Shown: positions 13-11,862 of the stretch, in pieces
Numbering within the stretch: position 1 is the stretch's first letter
How the letters are laid out: every line of letters begins with the position of its first letter
Origin: a virus
Taxonomy: Duplodnaviria > Heunggongvirae > Uroviricota > Caudoviricetes
IMG/VR virus record: IMGVR_UViG_2778261382_000003
Direction: 5' to 3' (one strand)
DNA length: 18,906 nt
The notes under the pieces: model-generated
The model's input: only the letters and a program-made list of their open reading frames with translations
Told to the model about the DNA's origin: nothing
Databases searched by the model: none
Position numbers and translations under genes: made by a program

Positions 13-291
13 TCAGCTCCATTCCCGAAGCGGTGTTTCCAGCTCCACGACATAATCAGAGAATACAGAAACATCAAACAAGTCATCAAGAATGCGAATG
101 TTGACAAAATAACCATCATTCCGGATACAGACAGGTTCTCCCTCTTCTGTTACCCCTGTTTCTGTGTAGGTGAAACCAATTTCATCAACTAACAGTTTAT
201 TCTGGAGGTCTTCATCTTCCGCCCAGCCAAGAGATGACAGGAAGGCCTTAAACTGCAGTTTGTCATGAAACTTCAAAGTTAAATCTTTCAT
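13..291 (-). CDS. Hypothetical small acidic protein (92 aa) immediately downstream of the tail fibre gene; possible tail-fibre accessory protein, but not a recognisable lambda Tfa
   Basis: Complete ORF. Its ATG (289-291) overlaps the tail fibre stop (288-290) in an ATGA arrangement, implying translational coupling. No recognisable family motif. Confidence 0.5.
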   Translation of the reverse strand: MKDLTLKFHDKLQFKAFLSSLGWAEDEDLQNKLLVDEIGFTYTETGVTEEGEPVCIRNDGYFVNIRILDDLFDVSVFSDYVVELETPLREWS

Positions 292-2249
292 ACGACCTCT
301 TTTAATTGCCTGTCATTTAATTCTTTATGCCATATGCGGAAATTGCGAATATGGCCAAACAGATGTCGTTCTCCAGTGTTCGTCTGCCCTCCAAATCGGA
401 TATTTTTATCAGCGGTCACGCCATTATATTCACAATAAACTTTATTAACCGCTTTACCATTTGTCACCACATGAAAGTGACCATCAGCTTTTGCAATACA
501 TCCAAATGTGGTTTTCTCTGCAAATACATCTGTCGCTGCGCTATTAACATACGAGCCTGAAGGGTTTGACAGACTCATATATAACTTACCACTACCTCTG
601 TTGATTGCTGCAATTGCTGATTGCCCGGTATTGGCTGCTGCTATATCCCACACGCGGGGTGCGGCGTTTGGTGCAATATCCCAGTTTTTATGAATCTCAA
701 GTAAAAAAGTAAATGGTAACTTATAAAGATTATTTCTGGTGGGGATACTAACCAAATCACTGGCTCTTGTCGTTGCGCTGCCTCCTGAAATAATAAATGA
801 TGATACACACGGCCCATTCTCTACTTGTGGGGTGGCAAGATAAATATAGTCACCAGATACTGTTGCCCCACCCTGCTCAGGAGAATACTGTATCTGAGAG
901 CCTATTTTTAACTCACCATCAATTGCCTGAATCGTTGCCTCTGCAAAAATCCAGCCTGTGGTCTTATCCTTCCTGACTCGTGCCGTAATTCTGCCGGCAG
1001 CCCCACCTGTCATATTAATTTCAAGCGTTTGCGTATCAATGTACGCATCGCCAAGAAAAGTTGTTGCACTACCATCATACTTATCAAACCGTATACGTAA
1101 CCTTACCTGTCGTTCTGTTTTAAAACGGCATGAGGTTGTCACGTACTTGTTATCGCCTGAGACATCAACTGACTTTGTTGCAGCAATTGATGCCATATTA
1201 ATAGCCGAAGTTTGCCCAACCAGAGAATCGTTGCAGACAAACTTTCCATAAGTAAAACCAAAACTATCTGTCCCGGTTTCGGGCACATCCATGTTTGATG
1301 ACTTCCCCCAGCTGGCTGGACTTTCCGAATTGAGCATGTAGTTCGTTCTTTGTCCCTCAATAAGCAGGCCATCACACTCAAATCGCGGCTCATTAATTTC
1401 CGCCGTTTTCAGTTCGCCAGATTTGTTGATATATGTTGCCGTTGATGCGCGACTGAAATTAACCTGTTTATCACTGGCGACCTGAACCACATCGTCACCA
1501 ATAGCTATTTTTTTATAGCCCGGAGAAAAACCCGCAATCATATCCAGTGAATCGTTAAACGGTATCCACACATCAGGCAGCGGCGGCACTATATTCGCAT
1601 AGGGCTCTGCAGTCACTTCCGCTGCGACTTCTGCGCGGTCTGCCGCCTTTTCAGCCCGTGTCGCTGCCGACAGAGCCTCATCCTTTTTCTGCCCGGCCTT
1701 TGTTGCGTCTGCTGCGGCCTCCCGCGCTTTTGTGGTGGCGACTCCGGCATTTTCAGCGGCTGACTCTGCATTACGGCGGGAAGCCTCTTCACTGTCTGCG
1801 GAGGCTTCTTCTGACGCACGGGCATTTGTCTCTGAACGTTCTGCCGCTGTTGCTGCGTTTTGTGCGGCTGTTTTTGAAGAAGCTGCCGCTTTCGCGCTGT
1901 TACCTGCATTCGTCTCTGATGTTTTCGCCGCATTCCTGGACGATGCCGCTGCTGTTTCTGATTTCTTTGCTGCCGCTGCGCTCTGAGAGGCGGCTTCAGC
2001 GTTGCGTGCCACCTCTTCCACCATCTTTTCAAAACGATACAGTGCCTCCGGACGAACATCATCTTCTGTTGCAGCGCCCAGAAAATCATTCAGCGTCCCC
2101 GGCTTAGAATCCTCATACACGGTGATGGTCCCGGCATGTGAAGGCGGAAAACCTTCAACCAGCAGGATAACGCTGTACTGGCCATACTCGACATCCATGC
2201 TGTAACGTCCGGCTTCATCCGGATTTTCTGAGGCCACCGTGTTCACCAC
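288..2249 (-). CDS. stf: Side tail fibre protein (lambda Stf-like N-terminus, Ala/Ser/Thr-rich repetitive shaft, divergent C-terminal receptor-binding domain)
   Basis: N-terminal region (VNTVASENPDEAGRYSMDVEYGQYSVILLVEGFPPSHAGTITVYEDS) matches the lambda side tail fibre N-terminus from memory. Low-complexity shaft follows. C-terminus ends ...GERHLFGHIRNFRIWHKELNDRQLKE, resembling the end of LamG/concanavalin-like jelly-roll domains. The annotated start is GTG; the frame stays open upstream to about 2330 (..KPIQNCTIQLKAKRNSTTVV) without an ATG, so the true N-terminus is uncertain or truncated. Confidence 0.85.
   Translation of the reverse strand: MVNTVASENPDEAGRYSMDVEYGQYSVILLVEGFPPSHAGTITVYEDSKPGTLNDFLGAATEDDVRPEALYRFEKMVEEVARNAEAASQSAAAAKKSETAAASSRNAAKTSETNAGNSAKAAASSKTAAQNAATAAERSETNARASEEASADSEEASRRNAESAAENAGVATTKAREAAADATKAGQKKDEALSAATRAEKAADRAEVAAEVTAEPYANIVPPLPDVWIPFNDSLDMIAGFSPGYKKIAIGDDVVQVASDKQVNFSRASTATYINKSGELKTAEINEPRFECDGLLIEGQRTNYMLNSESPASWGKSSNMDVPETGTDSFGFTYGKFVCNDSLVGQTSAINMASIAATKSVDVSGDNKYVTTSCRFKTERQVRLRIRFDKYDGSATTFLGDAYIDTQTLEINMTGGAAGRITARVRKDKTTGWIFAEATIQAIDGELKIGSQIQYSPEQGGATVSGDYIYLATPQVENGPCVSSFIISGGSATTRASDLVSIPTRNNLYKLPFTFLLEIHKNWDIAPNAAPRVWDIAAANTGQSAIAAINRGSGKLYMSLSNPSGSYVNSAATDVFAEKTTFGCIAKADGHFHVVTNGKAVNKVYCEYNGVTADKNIRFGGQTNTGERHLFGHIRNFRIWHKELNDRQLKEVV
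1610..2000. repeat. Degenerate Ala/Ser/Thr/Glu-rich tandem codon repeats inside the tail fibre gene
   Basis: Translation is low-complexity (AAASSRNAAKTSETNAGNSAKAAASSKTAAQNAATAAERSETNARASEEAS...). The repetitive GC-rich DNA keeps several antisense and alternate-frame ORFs open in the six-frame track. Confidence 0.55.
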
Positions 2250-2528: not shown

Positions 2529-2780
2529 ATGAAAATCAGAAATATTCTCGCTATCTCCCTTGCGACATCATCCTTCAGTTGCCTGGCATTTAAATCCTCG
2601 CCCAATGTGCTACCAGGACCAACGAATCAACTAACTGCGGTAGAAAGTAAAATTATCGGACATTTTTATGCCCCACACAGTACATTACCCGGAACAACCA
2701 TCACAGGGACATGTGACGCCTCCCCCGTCCCGGGATGCACCTGCCCGTTTTGTACTATGCTGCGTAGCCAAAACCGATAA
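2529..2780 (+). CDS. Hypothetical small secreted Cys-rich protein (83 aa)
   Basis: Internal ATG of track ORF 2460-2780; N-terminus MKIRNILAISLATSSFSCLA looks like a signal peptide. Lies in the junction region between bor and the tail fibre. No recognisable homology; weak call. Confidence 0.3.
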   Translation: MKIRNILAISLATSSFSCLAFKSSPNVLPGPTNQLTAVESKIIGHFYAPHSTLPGTTITGTCDASPVPGCTCPFCTMLRSQNR

Positions 2781-2841
2781 CATCCGCATTTACCTGGTAT
2801 TCCATGATGAGTTCACGCAGCGACTGATAGAGGAAGGAAAG

Positions 2842-3021
2842 ATGGTTAGTAAAAGCAAGGCGCATTGCCGCCGCATGCTGCAGGCATTGCAACAGACGAG
2901 AGCAGGTATTTTTGACCAGTTGGAAAACTGCCAGCATACTTTGCCCGAGTATATCGCCATCTCATCGGAAACCAGTGCAACTCTTATTCATCGGGTTCCA
3001 CCAGAGAAAAAGAAGAAATGA
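2842..3021 (+). CDS. Hypothetical small protein (59 aa)
   Basis: ATG at 2842 preceded by a strong Shine-Dalgarno (gaggaaggaaag ATG). An inverted repeat at about 3028-3052 follows the stop. Function unknown. Confidence 0.35.
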   Translation: MVSKSKAHCRRMLQALQQTRAGIFDQLENCQHTLPEYIAISSETSATLIHRVPPEKKKK

Positions 3022-3143
3022 ACAGTGAGGCGTTGTGTGGCATACAACGCCTTCTTCCATCATTCCTCGTCAGCCATGACAAAAATATAACCGCTGGCTC
3101 TTTCATTTTTCTCCTGCTTCCAGCCCCTCTCTATCTGGAAGCA

Positions 3144-3470
3144 TCAAGGACGTGACGGCGTAAAGATAAATTGTCTCTTCACTCCCTGACAGGGGCGATT
3201 CTTTTCAAATCGCCATTTCGCCATGGCCTTCACCACTTCATCACGAAACAAATTATGAGGCTCTGAGCGGAGAAAAACGATCCGTGTCACAGTCCCATCA
3301 GCACCAATATCGAACTTAACCTCAACCAGCCCCTTGATATAATTTGCTGCAGCATATTCCGGATATCGTGGATACACCGTCACTAATTGCCGGGGCTCAT
3401 CAGCTTTTTGCTGCGAGCATCCCACTGCCAGGACAGATAACAGAAAAAGTAGTAAAAGGCGTCTTTTCAT
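3144..3470 (-). CDS. Prophage lipoprotein with TonB C-terminal-like domain
   Basis: Start taken at the internal ATG (3468-3470) with SD agga 7 nt upstream. N-terminus MKRRLLLLFLLSVLAVGCSQQ is a signal peptide with lipobox (LAVGC). Remainder (VYPRYPEYAAANYIKGLVEVKFDIGADGTVTRIVFLRSEP..FRDEVVKAMAKWRFE) matches the TonB C-terminal domain pattern from memory. Confidence 0.6.
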   Translation of the reverse strand: MKRRLLLLFLLSVLAVGCSQQKADEPRQLVTVYPRYPEYAAANYIKGLVEVKFDIGADGTVTRIVFLRSEPHNLFRDEVVKAMAKWRFEKNRPCQGVKRQFIFTPSRP

Positions 3471-3950
3471 TTTTATTCCTACGGGTCTTATTCTGACAAT
3501 ATATCCTGTGTTCCAGACTGCCACATCACCACATCCTGTGCCATTATCTGACTCACATTACATACATCGCATCGGGATACAGTAGTAGCACTTTCTGTAA
3601 TACAGCTTCCTGTTTCTTCCACCATCGCACCGGGATAAACCCGCGAATCATTAACGCGGTAAAAACCCGGTGTGCATCGTTTTTAATTATTCCCGCACAC
3701 TCACGCAGAAGGAATTCCCCGTCGGGCTACGGTCATGGTTAATGCGGGAATACGGCGACGATACAGCGCAGCTAAAAGGGTAATGGACGGATAGACCGGT
3801 TTATTTCATTCCACAGGATTCTGAGTGTCCCCAACTTCCTCCAATAGTCTGAGCCCACCTGTGTAGTTTTAATTTTCATCAATCCATTTAACTATCGTTT
3901 AATTGTTGTCACATAGGATTCTGCCGTTTTTAACAATGCAGGATAATAAG

Positions 3951-4244
3951 ATGAAAAAAATGTTGTTTTCTGCCGCTCTGGCAATGCTTATTACAGGATG
4001 TGCTCAACAGACGTTTACTGTTGGAAACAAACCTACAGCAGTAACACCAAAGGAAACCATCACCCATCATTTCTTCGTTTCGGGAATTGGGCAGAAGAAA
4101 ACTGTCGATGCAGCAAAAATTTGTGGTGGTGCAGAAAATGTTGTTAAAACAGAAACCCAGCAAACATTCGTAAATGGATTGCTCGGTTTTATTACTTTAG
4201 GCATTTATACTCCGCTGGAAGCGCGTGTGTATTGCTCACAATAA
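3951..4244 (+). CDS. bor: Bor lipoprotein (serum-resistance, lysogenic conversion)
   Basis: 97-aa protein MKKMLFSAALAMLITGCAQQTFTV...ARVYCSQ, near-identical to lambda Bor from memory. Lipobox LITGC. RBS aggataataag ATG. Opposite strand to the lysis genes, as in lambda. Confidence 0.9.
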   Translation: MKKMLFSAALAMLITGCAQQTFTVGNKPTAVTPKETITHHFFVSGIGQKKTVDAAKICGGAENVVKTETQQTFVNGLLGFITLGIYTPLEARVYCSQ

Positions 4245-4275: not shown

Positions 4276-4752
4276 CTATCTGCACTGCTCATTAATATAC
4301 TTCTGGGTTCCTTCCAGTTGTTTTTGCATAGTGATCAGCCTCTCTCTGAGGGTGAAATAATCCCGTTCAGCGGTGTCTGCCAGTCGGGGGGAGGCTGCAT
4401 TATCCACGCCGGAGGCGGTGGTGGCTTCACGCACTGACTGACAGACTGCTTTGATGTGCAACCGACGACGACCAGCGGCAACATCATCACGCAGAGCATC
4501 ATTTTCAGCTTTCGCATCAGCTAACTCCTTCGTGTATTTTGCATCGAGCGCAGCAACATCACGCTGACGCATCTGTATGTCAGTAATTGCCGCGTTCGCC
4601 AGCGTCAGTTCTCTGGCATTTTTGTCGCGCTGGGCTTTGTAGGTAATCGCGTTATCGCGGTAATGATTAACAGCCCAAGACAGGCAGACGATGATGCAGA
4701 TAACCAGAGCGGAGATAATCGCGGCAACTCTTCTCACTGATCTATCCCCCAA
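4276..4752 (-). CDS. Rz: Rz i-spanin
   Basis: Translation (..[40 protein letters not shown]...QKYINEQCR) closely matches lambda Rz. Immediately downstream of the endolysin gene; exact start codon uncertain. Confidence 0.85.
4335..4517 (-). CDS. Rz1: Rz1 o-spanin (outer-membrane lipoprotein embedded in the +1 frame of Rz)
   Basis: 60-aa ORF wholly inside Rz: [60 protein letters not shown], with lipobox and proline-rich stretch, essentially lambda Rz1. Confidence 0.85.
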
Positions 4753-5267
4753 CAGGCTAATGCGCTTTCCTGGTCACGACGAATAACCTGTCCGTAGCAG
4801 TTATTTGAACGTGTGCGGCAATCACGCCCACCGTCCTTAATCCACCAGCGAATCGACTCACAGGCACCTTTACGATCACCGGCATTAAGCCGCTTATAAA
4901 ACGTCGACGGGAAACACTTACCGGGGCCAATGTTATAGGGGCAAAATGACGCGATACCTGCTTTTTGTGGCTCGGTCAGTGGAACTTTTATATTACGCTC
5001 CACCCATGCCAGCGCCTTATCCCGCTCAATGGCGTTAACCTGGGCGCATTTTTCCTTCGACAGTTTCATGCCCGGAATAACAGGTTTACCATCCACCACC
5101 GTGGCACCCCGGCAAATGGTCCATATGCCGGAACCATCGCGGTATGCCTTTGTGTGGTTACCCTCTTTTTCGTCCAGAAACTGGTCAAGTATCTGAGGAG
5201 CAGACGCGCCTGCGGCAATCAGCGCCAGAACAGCAGCCGACAGGCCGTATCTGATTTTTACGTTCAT
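4734..5267 (-). CDS. R: SAR endolysin (phage lysozyme, T4-lysozyme / R21-like muramidase with N-terminal signal-anchor-release helix)
   Basis: N-terminal hydrophobic Gly/Ala-rich helix ([18 protein letters not shown]). Conserved pattern E..C...(L)..F.YN.G.G.F..S.....N.GD..GAC..I..W..GG......RR..E...C typical of R21/P1 Lyz-type SAR endolysins. Not lambda-R-like. Confidence 0.9.
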
Positions 5268-5956: not shown

Positions 5957-6172
5957 TTACTCTCCCCGTGCAGCCTTACGCTTATCTTCTTTAATCTTGA
6001 AATAAAGGTTTGTCAGGTACGTCAGCAGGCCAAATACCAGGCTACCCAGCACACCTATTGCCGCCCACTGTGAGGGCGTGACTTTATCGAGCAACTGTAA
6101 AAACCAGTACCCGGCACTACCTGCTGAGGTGCCATAGGCGACACCCGTTGTTAACTTATCCATGGATTTCAT
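5957..6172 (-). CDS. S: Class II pinholin (phage 21 S / EssD-like) with dual-start antiholin/holin motif
   Basis: 71 aa [71 protein letters not shown]. Two TM segments, basic C-terminus, and Met1-Lys2-Ser3-Met4 dual start as in S21 (71-aa and 68-aa forms). Partnered with a SAR endolysin. Confidence 0.9.
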
Positions 6173-6761: not shown

Positions 6762-7844
6762 ATGAAAAAATTAACAGTGGCAATTTCTGCTGTAGCTGCA
6801 TCAGTACTGATGGCGATGTCTGCTCAGGCAGCTGAAATTTATAATAAAGACAGTAACAAGCTGGATCTATACGGGAAAGTTAATGCCAAGCACTACTTCT
6901 CCTCTAATGATGCAGATGATGGTGATACTACTTATGCCCGTCTTGGCTTCAAAGGTGAAACCCAAATCAACGATCAACTGACTGGTTTCGGTCAGTGGGA
7001 ATATGAATTCAAAGGCAACCGTGCTGAATCTCAAGGTTCTTCCAAAGACAAAACCCGTCTTGCATTTGCAGGCCTGAAATTTGGTGATTACGGCTCAATC
7101 GATTACGGCCGTAACTACGGTGTAGCATACGACATCGGTGCGTGGACTGACGTCCTGCCAGAATTCGGTGGTGATACCTGGACCCAAACAGATGTGTTCA
7201 TGACTGGTCGCACTACTGGTGTTGCAACTTATCGTAACAACGACTTCTTTGGTCTGGTCGATGGCCTGAACTTTGCTGCTCAGTATCAGGGTAAAAATGA
7301 CCGCACTGACGTAACTGAAGCCAATGGTGATGGTTTCGGTTTCTCCACTACTTATGAGTATGAAGGATTCGGCGTGGGTGCAACCTATGCTAAATCAGAT
7401 CGCACTGACGGTCAGGTCGCCTATGGTAAGAGCAAATTCAATGCCTCCGGCAAAAATGCGGAAGTATGGGCTGCAGGCCTGAAATATGATGCGAACAATA
7501 TCTATCTGGCTACCACATATTCTGAAACTCAGAATATGACCGTTTTTGGTAATAACCATATTGCAAACAAAGCACAAAACTTTGAAGCAGTAGCACAATA
7601 TCAGTTTGACTTCGGTCTGCGACCATCTGTTGCTTACCTTCAGTCAAAAGGTAAAGACCTTGGTGTTCATGGTGACCGAGACTTAGTCAAGTATGTCGAT
7701 GTCGGTGCTACTTACTACTTTAATAAAAACATGTCCACTTTTGTTGATTACAAAATCAACTTAATTGACGATAGTAAGTTTACCAAAACAGCTGGTATTG
7801 ATACCGACGACATCGTCGCTGTAGGTCTGGTTTATCAGTTCTAA
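6762..7844 (+). CDS. nmpC: OmpC/OmpF-family general porin (phage Lc / NmpC-type), lysogenic-conversion moron
   Basis: 360 aa with signal peptide [23 protein letters not shown], mature start [18 protein letters not shown]-terminal ..VAVGLVYQF (terminal Phe), classic enterobacterial 16-strand porin features. Sits between Q and the holin on the opposite strand, as in DLP12 and PA-2. A long AT-rich leader lies upstream (6340-6760). Confidence 0.95.
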
Positions 7845-11613: not shown

Positions 11614-11862
11614 TCAACCCCAGTAAATGGACACCATGATGATCACAGCCATAGCTGCTACAACAGTTACAACTACCTCAGGCCAAAACATAACGATTTC
11701 CATATCACCTTTAGCCGCCAGACGAATAGAGACTCCCAATTCTGGCTGTCGAAGTAAAACACCGAATGTAAAAAATCGTAGGTGCATTTCTGCATCTGTG
11801 AATGGAGATGAGAGTTTGGATTGTGTGTGCGCATAAACGTCCCCGTTTAGCGCAGAAGTCAC
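11614..11862 (-). CDS. Hypothetical small protein (82 aa, C-terminal hydrophobic segment); N-terminal 31 codons lie inside repeat copy B
   Basis: GTG start at 11860-11862; C-terminus IVMFWPEVVVTVVAAMAVIIMVSIYWG is hydrophobic. Its first 31 codons are shared with a 35-aa ORF in repeat copy A, differing by 4 synonymous and 1 non-synonymous changes. Weak RBS; coding status uncertain. Confidence 0.3.
   Translation of the reverse strand: MTSALNGDVYAHTQSKLSSPFTDAEMHLRFFTFGVLLRQPELGVSIRLAAKGDMEIVMFWPEVVVTVVAAMAVIIMVSIYWG

What the first reader, a model, noticed from the sequence alone, without database searches (positions are those of the whole stretch)
3144..3470. Prophage-encoded lipoprotein with a TonB C-terminal-like domain next to bor
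The protein has a lipoprotein signal peptide with lipobox LAVGC followed by a ~90-aa region matching the TonB C-terminal domain pattern (YP..A....I.G.V.VKFD...DG.V..I....SEP...F..EV..AM..WRFE). A free periplasm-facing TonB-C mimic anchored to a membrane could compete with host TonB at TonB-box receptors (FhuA, BtuB and others), giving a superinfection-exclusion or colicin-protection function similar in effect to Cor lipoproteins. It sits in the lysogenic-conversion neighbourhood next to bor.
Basis: inference. Interest (0 to 1): 0.55.

Follow-up and report, generated by a model that had tools for sequence, protein, structure and literature searches.

The report
Prophage lipoprotein with TonB C-domain
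A defective phage-21-like prophage of E. coli encodes a small outer-membrane lipoprotein that is only the receptor-docking end of the host energy-coupling protein TonB. The gene is real, common, conserved and switched on in lysogens, but what it does has never been tested, and blocking TonB-dependent uptake of phages and colicins is the leading idea.

Summary
**Observation confirmed.** Window 3144..3470 (minus strand) encodes a 108-aa protein. It has a lipoprotein signal peptide (LAVG|C18, Ser at +2) followed by one TonB C-terminal domain.
- Pfam TonB_C scores 49 bits against a cutoff of 24.6.
- It aligns without gaps to E. coli TonB 150-230 at about 40% identity.
- The AlphaFold model matches TonB in the BtuB and FhuA complexes (TM 0.91-0.92, rmsd about 1 Å).

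**Already annotated.**
- The identical protein is in phage 21 ("TonB C-terminal domain protein") and in LF82 prophage Perceval ("TonB fragment").
- RefSeq names it WP_000830178, "TonB family protein".
- The gene occurs in 1616 of 5426 complete E. coli genomes.

**Evidence that it is functional.**
- dN/dS between the two E. coli alleles is 0.12.
- It always lies between Rz and the terminase genes, on the same strand as the late genes.
- Published RNA-seq shows it transcribed in lysogens while the flanking late genes are silent.

**Function is untested.** An outer-membrane-tethered, non-energised TonB domain that binds Ton boxes and dampens TonB-dependent uptake is plausible, because periplasmic TonB fragments do this. 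Two findings weaken a simple "mimic" reading:
- TonB's contact residues (R158, Q160, R166) are systematically replaced.
- Non-phage chromosomal homologues exist in Klebsiella, Raoultella, Serratia and Erwinia.

No paper I searched addresses its function.

The parts
3144..3470 (-). CDS for a 108-aa lipoprotein whose mature part is a single TonB C-terminal domain. Identical to phage 21 CPT_21_73, LF82 Perceval PERCE_65 and RefSeq WP_000830178.1.
3417..3470 (-). Signal peptide with lipobox LAVG|C (residues 1-18). Cys18 is the predicted lipidation site. Ser19 at +2 predicts Lol sorting to the outer membrane.
   Evidence: Read directly from the sequence. Cys is invariant in 12 of 12 family members and no member has Asp at +2. 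No dedicated lipoprotein predictor was run.
3162..3395 (-). TonB_C domain, residues 26-103, equivalent to E. coli TonB 153-230. It includes the YP motif (Y36, P37), core aromatics F53, F75, W86, F88 and F103, and strand beta3 (residues 94-103), the strand that pairs with Ton boxes in TonB.
3477..3480 (-). Shine-Dalgarno-like AGGA, 6 nt upstream of the ATG.
   Evidence: Read from the sequence. Annotated as an RBS in phage 21.
3632..3770 (.). Conserved, hairpin-rich intergenic block between bor and the lipoprotein gene. It is a candidate shared regulatory or leader region. Its function is unknown and no promoter was located.
   Evidence: More conserved between allele A and allele B loci than the CDS. 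Found in 4582 of 5426 E. coli genomes, also without the TonB_C gene. No Rfam hit. The promoter scan found nothing on the minus strand.
3029..3051 (.). GC-rich hairpin GGCGTTGT-N7-ACAACGCC, about 90 nt downstream of the stop codon, with T-rich sequence on both sides. It may be a bidirectional terminator that closes the transcription unit.
   Evidence: Read from the sequence. The terminator scan did not flag it, so this is inference only.
3948..4244 (+). Neighbouring bor/iss serum-resistance lipoprotein gene, divergent. It is context, not an obligate partner.
   Evidence: absent at this position in many loci

Best explanation
[quoted passage not shown] Its folded part is a stand-alone TonB C-terminal domain held on a tether of about 8-10 residues, directly under the periplasmic face of TonB-dependent transporters.

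It lacks TonB's membrane anchor and proline-rich spacer, so it cannot deliver energy. The most likely activity is non-productive beta-strand pairing of its beta3 edge with Ton-box segments. These could belong to transporters such as FhuA, BtuB, FepA and Cir, or to incoming Ton-box-bearing colicins. That pairing would compete with the scarce host TonB and dampen TonB-dependent uptake.

In a lysogen this would lower sensitivity to TonB-dependent phages (T1 and phi80 types), group B colicins and microcins. It would not affect TonB-independent agents. The gene is expressed from the prophage at a constant modest level, and read-through of the late operon should raise it during lytic growth.

**Shown:** domain identity, fold, lipobox, purifying selection, conserved position and strand, and expression in lysogens.

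**Inferred:** outer-membrane location, Ton-box binding, and any exclusion phenotype.
For: - **Domain and fold.** Pfam, NCBIfam and PDB matches, and AlphaFold/Foldseek TM 0.91-0.92 to TonB as seen bound to BtuB and FhuA.
- **The pairing strand is kept.** In the FhuA-TonB complex the Ton box pairs in parallel with TonB beta3, and Ton-box activity depends more on secondary structure than on side chains. The equivalent strand, residues 94-103, is confidently modelled and F103 (TonB F230) is conserved.
- **Precedent.** Signal-peptide-directed periplasmic TonB fragments 33-239, 103-239 and 122-239 inhibit TonB-system activity, including ferrichrome transport.
- **The Q160 position.** Q160L in TonB suppresses Ton-box mutations. 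The lipoproteins carry Y, L, T or H there, and the EHEC allele has L.
- **It is a working gene.** dN/dS is 0.12 overall and 0.10 in the domain, with dS about 1.5, between the two E. coli alleles. Length and lipobox are conserved in Klebsiella prophage homologues.
- **Expression.** In LF82 it reads log2 5.0-6.6 in all five conditions, against about 2.3-4.3 for endolysin, Rz and terminase.
- **Retention.** It is kept in this degraded prophage, which has lost its head genes and most tail genes.
Against: - No experiment exists, and no paper I found assigns a phenotype.
- TonB residues R158, N159, Q160 and R166 are near-invariant in enterobacterial TonBs. In the lipoprotein subfamily they are replaced consistently: S/T/K, P/V/A/S, Y/T/L/P, and an invariant Y. 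Other subfamily-specific invariant residues are N43, S69, E70 and K/R99. The binding surface has therefore diverged and may recognise something else.
- Homologues at 37-49% identity are ordinary chromosomal genes in Klebsiella, Raoultella, Serratia and Erwinia. A constitutive TonB antagonist is an odd thing for a cell to keep.
- From my own knowledge, transporters outnumber TonB many-fold. A modestly expressed blocker of transporters may be stoichiometrically inefficient.
- PADLOC has no matching defence model.
- The carrier phages show no sign of using a TonB-dependent receptor. J of phage 21 is 55-57% identical to the porin-binding J proteins of lambda and 434 in its C-terminal 250 aa, and no cor gene is annotated. 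Self-exclusion is therefore unlikely.
Confidence: 0.38

Rival explanations
1. The outcome is the same, inhibition of the TonB system, but the target differs. The lipoprotein domain pairs with the C-terminal domain of host TonB itself and parks the scarce transducer at the outer membrane. It does not cover the much more abundant transporters.
For: [quoted passage not shown]
- From my own knowledge, TonB C-terminal fragments crystallise as dimers (1ihr, 1u07, both among the hits), Cys substitutions at these aromatics trap TonB dimers in vivo, and TonB is far less abundant than its transporters.
- The inhibitory action of periplasmic TonB fragments has been re-examined for targets other than the transporters.
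Against: - There is no direct evidence.
- The physiological relevance of TonB C-terminal dimers is disputed.
- The AlphaFold model is monomeric, and no complex could be modelled with these tools.
Confidence: 0.12
2. It is a member of a bacterial family of stand-alone TonB_C lipoproteins with a housekeeping envelope role that is not TonB antagonism. Examples would be binding another beta-strand ligand, binding peptidoglycan, or tethering an outer-membrane protein. The phage carries it as a generic fitness or virulence cargo gene, like bor/iss.
For: - Chromosomal, non-phage homologues lie at syntenic loci. In Klebsiella and Raoultella they lie next to lacZ-lacI. In Serratia the locus lies beside dsbB-nhaB-fadR. 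In Erwinia the gene lies next to araA.
- Many short TonB_C-only proteins, lipidated or merely secreted, exist across Proteobacteria.
- A subfamily-specific set of invariant surface residues differs from TonB.
- Expression in LF82 is constitutive and does not respond to conditions.
- The gene lies among other envelope cargo genes: bor/iss, an NmpC-like porin and sitABCD.
Against: - No ligand or phenotype is known for any member.
- No conserved operon partner was seen. DUF1440 is adjacent in only some loci.
- The only well-established activity of this fold is Ton-box pairing.
Confidence: 0.3
3. It is a lysis accessory or spanin-like lipoprotein of the late operon, as suggested by the PHROG label "Rz-like spanin".
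For: - PHROG 1267 carries that label (E 5e-43).
- The gene always lies just downstream of Rz/Rz1 on the late-gene strand.
- It is a lipoprotein.
Against: - The prophage has its own complete Rz (4276..4752) with an embedded Rz1 (4335..4517).
- The protein is a globular TonB_C domain. It is not a short proline-rich o-spanin and has no paired i-spanin.
- It is transcribed in lysogens while the endolysin and Rz are silent.
- Chromosomal homologues lie far from any lysis genes.
Confidence: 0.03
4. It is a decaying fragment of a captured tonB gene with no function, as the labels "partial tonB-like" and "TonB fragment" in some annotations imply.
For: Annotation labels in ev017 and Perceval. There is about 40% identity to the 3' end of E. 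coli tonB.
Against: - It has its own start codon, RBS and lipoprotein signal peptide.
- The length is exactly 108 aa in two alleles that differ at dS about 1.5, with dN/dS 0.12.
- It is conserved in Klebsiella prophages and in chromosomal loci.
- It is transcribed.
Confidence: 0.02

Closest known systems
C-terminal domain of E. coli TonB (residues about 150-239; PDB 1u07, 1xx3, 2gsk chain B, 2grx chain C)
   Same: - Same Pfam and TIGRFAM domain.
- Ungapped alignment at about 40% identity.
- Same fold (TM 0.91-0.92, rmsd about 1 Å).
- YP motif, core aromatics and the beta3 strand are conserved.
   Different: - No N-terminal transmembrane anchor and no proline-rich spacer, so there is no link to ExbB/ExbD and no energy transduction.
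- It is anchored to the opposite (outer) membrane by a lipid.
- It ends 4 residues short of TonB, in a proline-rich tail (TPSRP).
- R158, Q160 and R166 are replaced, and it scores 69 bits against a 315-bit cutoff for the TonB equivalog model.
Engineered periplasmic TonB fragments (signal peptide fused to TonB 33-239, 103-239 or 122-239), which are dominant-negative inhibitors of TonB-dependent transport
   Same: [quoted passage not shown] This is the direct experimental precedent for the proposed mechanism.
   Different: - The fragments are soluble, over-expressed laboratory constructs carrying the authentic TonB sequence and part of the spacer.
- This protein is natural, lipid-anchored, has a diverged surface and is expressed at a modest level.
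Cor (phi80, N15) and Llp (T5), phage lipoproteins that inactivate the FhuA receptor
   Same: Small phage-encoded outer-membrane lipoproteins, proposed or shown to act on a TonB-dependent transporter from the periplasmic side and give superinfection exclusion.
   Different: - No sequence relationship was detected. Pfam returned only TonB_C and PHROGs returned only phrog_1267 and phrog_34172.
- Cor and Llp protect against phages that use the carrier phage's own receptor, FhuA. Here the carrier phages show no evidence of using a TonB-dependent receptor, and the predicted target, Ton boxes, is generic to all such transporters.
- No exclusion phenotype has been demonstrated.
Bor/Iss lipoprotein of lambdoid phages
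   Same: A small outer-membrane lipoprotein cargo gene in the same Rz-to-cos slot, expressed in lysogens. It is the immediate neighbour here.
   Different: - It is an unrelated fold and family, and it sits on the opposite strand.
- bor is strongly induced in macrophage and DMEM conditions, whereas the TonB_C gene is constitutive.
- The two genes are not obligately linked.

Membership tests
TonB_C domain (Pfam PF03544 / TIGR01352) | Profile HMM score above the curated cutoff | tested here: met
   PF03544: 49.2 bits against 24.6. TIGR01352: 47.4 bits against 27.1.
TonB_C domain (Pfam PF03544 / TIGR01352) | Two-helix, three-strand fold of solved TonB C-terminal domains | tested here: met
   AlphaFold2 core pLDDT above 95. 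Foldseek: 2gsk_B TM 0.92 and rmsd 1.0 Å; 2grx_C TM 0.91 and rmsd 0.9 Å.
TonB_C domain (Pfam PF03544 / TIGR01352) | Conserved YP motif and core aromatic residues | tested here: met
   Y36-P37 correspond to TonB Y163-P164. F53, F75, W86, F88 and F103 correspond to F180, F202, W213, Y215 and F230.
Bona fide TonB energy transducer (NCBIfam PRK10819 equivalogs) | N-terminal transmembrane anchor that couples to ExbB/ExbD | tested here: not met
   The only N-terminal hydrophobic segment is a cleavable lipoprotein signal peptide ending in LAVG|C. The protein aligns only to TonB 150-230.
Bona fide TonB energy transducer (NCBIfam PRK10819 equivalogs) | Proline-rich periplasm-spanning spacer and full-length equivalog score | tested here: not met
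   There are about 8-10 residues between Cys18 and the domain. The best equivalog score is 69 bits against a cutoff of 315.
Bona fide TonB energy transducer (NCBIfam PRK10819 equivalogs) | Conserved transporter-contact residues R158, Q160 and R166 | tested here: not met
   These are T31, Y33 and Y39 here. In 17 lipoprotein-type sequences they are S/T/K, Y/T/L/P and an invariant Y, against R in 30/32, Q in 26/32 and R in 31/32 TonBs. The roles of R158 and R166 come from my own recollection of the complex structures.
Bacterial outer-membrane lipoprotein (signal peptidase II substrate) | Lipobox [LVI][ASTVI][GAS]C at the end of a signal peptide, conserved in relatives | tested here: met
   LAVGC at residues 14-18. 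Cys is invariant in 12 of 12 relatives and is also present in chromosomal homologues. This is a pattern match only; no dedicated predictor was run.
Bacterial outer-membrane lipoprotein (signal peptidase II substrate) | Actual lipidation and outer-membrane localisation (no Asp at +2) | not testable with these tools
   The +2 residue is Ser here and S, T, A, V or G in relatives, never Asp. Localisation needs fractionation or a globomycin experiment.
Receptor-blocking superinfection-exclusion lipoproteins (Cor, Llp) | Sequence homology to Cor or Llp | tested here: not met
   Pfam returned only TonB_C. PHROGs returned only phrog_1267 and phrog_34172.
Receptor-blocking superinfection-exclusion lipoproteins (Cor, Llp) | Expression renders cells resistant to phages that use the blocked receptor | not testable with these tools
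   No published phenotype was found.
Rz1-type o-spanin (PHROG 1267 label) | Short proline-rich lipoprotein encoded within or next to its i-spanin partner and required for lysis | tested here: not met
   A separate Rz with an embedded Rz1 is present at 4276..4752 and 4335..4517. This protein is a globular TonB_C domain. It is transcribed when Rz is silent.
Moron (autonomously expressed prophage cargo gene) | Transcribed in the lysogen while flanking phage genes are repressed | tested here: met
   Published RNA-seq for the identical gene in LF82 shows 8-fold above prophage background. Its log2 value is 5.0-6.6, against 2.3-4.3 for endolysin, Rz and terminase. This is literature evidence, not from the strain that supplied this window.
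Moron (autonomously expressed prophage cargo gene) | Own promoter and terminator | tested here: inconclusive
   The consensus scan found no minus-strand promoter between 2300 and 4400. A conserved upstream block and a downstream hairpin at 3029-3051 are candidates only.

The most novel reading that the evidence does not exclude
Phage 21-type prophages carry an "uptake-rewiring" cargo set.
- An outer-membrane-tethered TonB decoy throttles every TonB-gated door at once. This would give broad protection against TonB-dependent phages, group B colicins, microcins and sideromycins.
- The same prophage supplies TonB-independent metal import (SitABCD) and an extra porin to offset the iron cost.

This would be a new class of superinfection or bacteriocin exclusion. 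It would act on the energy-coupling step, not on a single receptor, and it would be present in about 30% of E. coli genomes, including the ExPEC lineages UTI89 and ST131 and EHEC O157.
Probability: 0.25. Interest if true: 0.7.

Novelty: new variant of a known kind. Interest (0 to 1): 0.45.

Why it matters
- **A generic mode of exclusion.** If the decoy mechanism holds, a single small prophage protein would block a whole class of entry routes: T1 and phi80-like phages, colicins B, D, Ia and M, catecholate microcins and siderophore-antibiotic conjugates. It would do so by targeting the shared TonB docking step. That mode of exclusion has not been described for any phage.
- **Practical reach.** The gene is in about 30% of complete E. 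coli genomes, including major ExPEC and EHEC lineages. This bears on phage-therapy host range, on colicin and microcin ecology in the gut, and on susceptibility to sideromycin-type drugs.
- **A tool for the TonB field.** It would also supply a natural, genetically simple inhibitor of TonB-transporter coupling.
- **If the mechanism does not hold.** The result would still define an uncharacterised family of stand-alone TonB_C lipoproteins with an unknown envelope role in Enterobacterales.

Tried and rejected
- **Spanin reading (PHROG 1267 label).** Rejected because a separate Rz/Rz1 pair is present, the fold is globular, the gene is expressed in lysogens, and chromosomal homologues exist.
- **Decaying tonB fragment.** Rejected by dN/dS 0.12 and by conserved length and lipobox.
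- **Fur regulation.** The best match to the 19-bp Fur box upstream is 11/19, which is not convincing.
- **Promoter.** The consensus scan found none on the gene's strand. My reading of the sequence by eye gave only weak candidates.
- **Known RNA element in the conserved upstream block.** No Rfam hit. The folding z-score is only -1.1.
- **Defence-system membership.** No PADLOC hit.
- **Self-receptor exclusion, as with Cor.** The C-terminal part of phage 21 J is 55-57% identical to the lambda and 434 J proteins, and no cor gene is annotated. The receptor itself could not be established, and a literature search was unproductive.
- **Obligate linkage to bor.** Rejected.
- **Conserved operon partner in chromosomal loci.** None is consistent. 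DUF1440 is adjacent in only some loci.
- **Literature searches for any functional study.** Nothing found.
- **The Howard et al. 2001 paper.** It could not be fetched. Its result is cited second-hand through.
- **Modelling a complex with a Ton box.** Not possible with the structure tool, which accepts only single proteins from the window or from the homologue search.
Full report
**1. What is there**

The minus strand of window 3144..3470 encodes a 108-aa protein, MKRRLLLLFLLSVLAVGCSQQKADEPRQLVTVYPRYPEYAAANYIKGLVEVKFDIGADGTVTRIVFLRSEPHNLFRDEVVKAMAKWRFEKNRPCQGVKRQFIFTPSRP. The mechanical ORF runs up to a GTG at 3524. The ATG at 3470 is preceded by AGGA. It is the start used in RefSeq (WP_000830178.1) and in the curated phage 21 record, and all homologues begin there.

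Residues 1-18 are a signal peptide ending in the lipobox L-A-V-G-C. The Cys is invariant in the family, and the +2 residue is S, T, A, V or G, never Asp. By the standard +2 rule this predicts an outer-membrane, periplasm-facing lipoprotein. That location is an inference.

Residues 26-103 are a TonB C-terminal domain:
- Pfam PF03544 scores 49.2 bits against a cutoff of 24.6, E 7e-13.
- TIGR01352 scores 47.4 bits against 27.1.
- phmmer against solved structures gives E 1e-14 to E. coli TonB chains. The alignment of residues 23-103 to TonB 150-230 is ungapped, so residue i corresponds to TonB i+127.
- An AlphaFold2 model built on a 49-sequence alignment has pLDDT above 95 across the domain.
- The model superposes on TonB as seen bound to BtuB (2gsk_B, TM 0.92, rmsd 1.0 Å) and to FhuA (2grx_C, TM 0.91, rmsd 0.9 Å).

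**2. Where it sits**

The window is a defective lambdoid prophage integrated at icd. It runs from the integrase (17764..) through replication genes and Q. An NmpC/OmpC-like porin follows at 6762..7844 (+). The lysis cassette is holin 5957..6172, endolysin 4734..5267, and Rz 4276..4752 with embedded Rz1 4335..4517. Then come bor/iss at 3948..4244 (+) and the TonB_C lipoprotein gene.

To the left, at about position 2305, the cos-proximal region is fused directly to a side-tail-fibre gene. All head genes and most tail genes have been deleted. sitABCD lies just outside the window.

The intact relatives are phage 21 itself and LF82 prophage Perceval. Both encode a 100% identical protein. Phage 21 also carries sitABCD.

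**3. It is already annotated, and it is common**

- GenBank and RefSeq call it "TonB C-terminal domain protein" (phage 21), "TonB fragment" (Perceval), "partial tonB-like membrane protein" (ev017) or "TonB family protein".
- blastn finds it in 1616 of 5426 complete E. coli genomes. There are two allele groups. One is at least 99% identical to the window copy (1201 genomes, including UTI89 and ST131). The other is about 73% identical (392 genomes, including O157:H7 and O111).
- Only 15 of 50,697 phage records hold it. Among them are Stx1a-converting phages and one Klebsiella phage.
- 217 IMG/VR contigs encode a relative.

**4. Evidence that it is a working gene with its own expression**

- **Selection.** Between the two E. 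coli alleles dS is about 1.5, which is saturated, while dN/dS is 0.12 overall and 0.10 in the domain. Both alleles are exactly 108 aa.
- **Klebsiella homologues.** Klebsiella prophage homologues (38-44% identity) keep the lipobox and the single-domain layout.
- **Position.** In all 80 viral contigs examined, and in phage 21, O157 prophages and Klebsiella prophages, the gene lies between Rz and the small terminase gene on the same strand as the late operon. bor is present in only about half of those loci.
- **Transcription.** The LF82 study (PMC9928086) lists the identical gene as a moron transcribed 8-fold above prophage background. In its supplementary table the gene reads log2 5.0-6.6 in all five conditions. 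The upstream endolysin and Rz and the downstream terminase read about 2.3-4.3. bor swings from about 4 to about 11.

The gene is therefore transcribed autonomously and constitutively in lysogens. Its orientation means late-operon read-through should add to this during lytic growth, which is an inference. I could not locate the promoter, and there is no convincing Fur box.

**5. What it is not**

- **Not a TonB.** It has no N-terminal anchor and no proline-rich spacer. It scores 69 bits against a 315-bit cutoff for the best TonB equivalog model.
- **Not a spanin, despite the PHROG 1267 label.** The prophage has its own Rz/Rz1, the protein is globular, and it is expressed when the lysis genes are silent.
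- **Not a decaying tonB fragment.** See section 4.
- **Not in PADLOC.**

**6. A distinct subfamily, not a fresh copy of tonB**

I compared 17 lipoprotein-type sequences with 32 enterobacterial TonB C-termini.

The fold-determining residues are shared: P161, Y163, P164, G174, G186, P198, F202, W213, R214, Y/F215, E216, P220, G223 and F230.

A second set of positions differs consistently:

| TonB residue | Lipoprotein subfamily |
|---|---|
| R158 | S/T/K |
| N159 | P/V/A/S |
| Q160 | Y/T/L/P |
| R166 | Y (17/17) |
| L170 | N (17/17) |
| A196 | S (17/17) |
| Q/K197 | E (17/17) |
| V226 | K/R (17/17) |

Q160 is the classical site of Ton-box suppressor mutations. Q160L restores the activity of FhuA and colicin M Ton-box mutants. 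Notably, the EHEC allele has Leu at that position. From my own recollection of the 2006 complex structures and of Cys-crosslinking work, R158, Q160-Y163 and R166 lie at the transporter interface.

The protein also ends four residues before TonB's C-terminus, in a proline-rich tail.

A scan of one genome per species found homologues at 37-49% identity in plainly non-phage loci:
- In Klebsiella sp. and three Raoultella species the gene is downstream of lacZ-lacI.
- In Serratia grimesii it lies between a ycgN-like gene and dsbB-nhaB-fadR.
- In Erwinia it lies beside araA.

An exhaustive HMMER search shows many more short TonB_C-only proteins, lipidated or merely secreted, across Proteobacteria. 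The phage gene therefore belongs to a bacterial family of stand-alone TonB_C lipoproteins that lambdoid phages have picked up. No paper I could find characterises any member.

**7. Most likely mechanism**

[quoted passage not shown] Ton-box function depends more on local secondary structure than on particular side chains. The lipoprotein keeps that strand (residues 94-103, confidently modelled). If it is sorted to the outer membrane on an 8-10-residue tether, the strand sits at the periplasmic mouth of the transporters.

Periplasmic, non-energised TonB fragments (33-239, 103-239, 122-239) are known to inhibit TonB-system activity, including ferrichrome transport. The best-supported reading is therefore a non-productive Ton-box binder that competes with host TonB and dampens TonB-dependent uptake. 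The expected result is selective protection against TonB-dependent phages and group B colicins and microcins. I put this at about 0.38.

A variant has the domain capturing the scarce host TonB itself (about 0.12). The conserved aromatic core, the known dimerisation of TonB C-terminal fragments and stoichiometry all make it reasonable.

The main rival (about 0.30) is that the family has a different envelope role and a different ligand. The diverged contact residues and the chromosomal homologues both point that way.

Self-exclusion in the manner of Cor is unlikely. The C-terminal 250 aa of phage 21 J are 55-57% identical to those of lambda (LamB) and 434 (OmpC), and no cor gene is annotated. 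The receptor of phage 21 was not established here.

**8. Comparison with known systems, and novelty**

In fold and domain family it is a TonB C-terminal domain. In architecture it is neither a TonB nor a relative of Cor, Llp or Bor. What it may work like is a natural, membrane-tethered version of the dominant-negative TonB fragments, used as Cor and Llp are used.

The functional idea is untested and, as far as the library I searched shows, unpublished. I rate it a new variant of a known kind, with moderate interest (0.45). It is cheap to test, broad in consequence if true, and common in pathogenic E. coli. Everything on mechanism rests on inference, and two findings here weaken the simple mimic story.

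**9. Speculative extension**

Phage 21 and Perceval-type prophages carry three envelope or uptake cargo functions. These are this lipoprotein, SitABCD (TonB-independent Fe/Mn import) and, in Perceval and this window, an extra porin. All were found expressed in LF82 lysogens.

A combined package that closes the TonB-gated doors and opens a TonB-independent route is conceivable. However, the three lie on one inherited prophage backbone, so their co-occurrence is not independent evidence. The EHEC allele's prophages were not seen to carry sit.

Noticed in passing
window 3632-3770 (intergenic, between bor and the TonB_C gene): A block of about 140 nt with nested GC-rich hairpins. Between the allele A and allele B loci it is about 85-90% identical, against 73% for the coding sequence. 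It occurs at 11,732 places in 4582 of 5426 E. coli genomes. These include K-12 DLP12 (between bor and ybcV) and plasmids, where it lies next to iss. It has no Rfam match and its function is unknown. It may be the bor/iss upstream regulatory region or an element of the late transcript.
   Followed up: partly
window about 2250-2460; junction near 2305: The prophage has lost its head genes and most tail genes. The cos-proximal region is fused directly to a side-tail-fibre ORF (288..2249, minus strand). Other genomes share the sequence only from position 2305 rightwards, with different left flanks. The cargo genes sitABCD, the TonB_C lipoprotein, bor/iss and the porin are retained.
   Followed up: partly
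L013-L016 (Klebsiella sp., Raoultella), L017, L018 (Erwinia), L019 (Serratia grimesii): Homologues of the lipoprotein at 37-49% identity lie in ordinary chromosomal loci with no phage genes nearby. In Klebsiella and Raoultella the site is syntenic, downstream of lacZ-lacI. In Serratia the locus lies beside dsbB-nhaB-fadR. In Erwinia the gene lies beside araA. This indicates a bacterial family that phages acquired.
   Followed up: partly
L015 6749-7312, L016 6738-7301; L005 1027-1653: A DUF1440 (YagU-like) membrane protein gene lies immediately downstream of the chromosomal TonB_C lipoprotein gene in two species. A 61-62% identical copy is a separate cargo gene in the Klebsiella prophages that also carry a TonB_C lipoprotein. 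This could be a functional link or a coincidence.
   Followed up: no
window 6762-7844 (+): An NmpC/OmpC-like porin gene sits between Q and the holin, on the strand opposite to the late genes. The LF82 study lists its counterpart as a moron expressed 10-fold above background.
   Followed up: no
window 2755-2937 (-) and 2842-3021 (+): Two overlapping small ORFs on opposite strands each match their own PHROG family with E about 1e-46 (phrog_3744 and phrog_4843). Public annotations disagree on which is real. RefSeq and phage 21 call the minus-strand one. The plus-strand ORF ends just before the 3029-3051 hairpin.
   Followed up: partly
L012 (Modestobacter excelsi contig NZ_SJEX01000172.1, 418 bp): A 418-bp contig in an actinobacterial assembly encodes residues 1-67 of this E. 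coli prophage protein at 100% identity. This is almost certainly contamination of that assembly.
   Followed up: no
window residue C94 of the protein (codon 3189-3191): The allele in this window has a second, unpaired Cys in the mature protein (NRPCQG). It is R, S, T, Y, A or another residue in other family members, so it is unlikely to be functionally required.
   Followed up: yes
one search hits such as P0123, P0128, P0132, P0181: The exhaustive search also finds long proteins (about 350-1300 aa) with 3-6 tandem TonB_C-like stretches. I did not recognise this repeat architecture and did not look into it.
   Followed up: no
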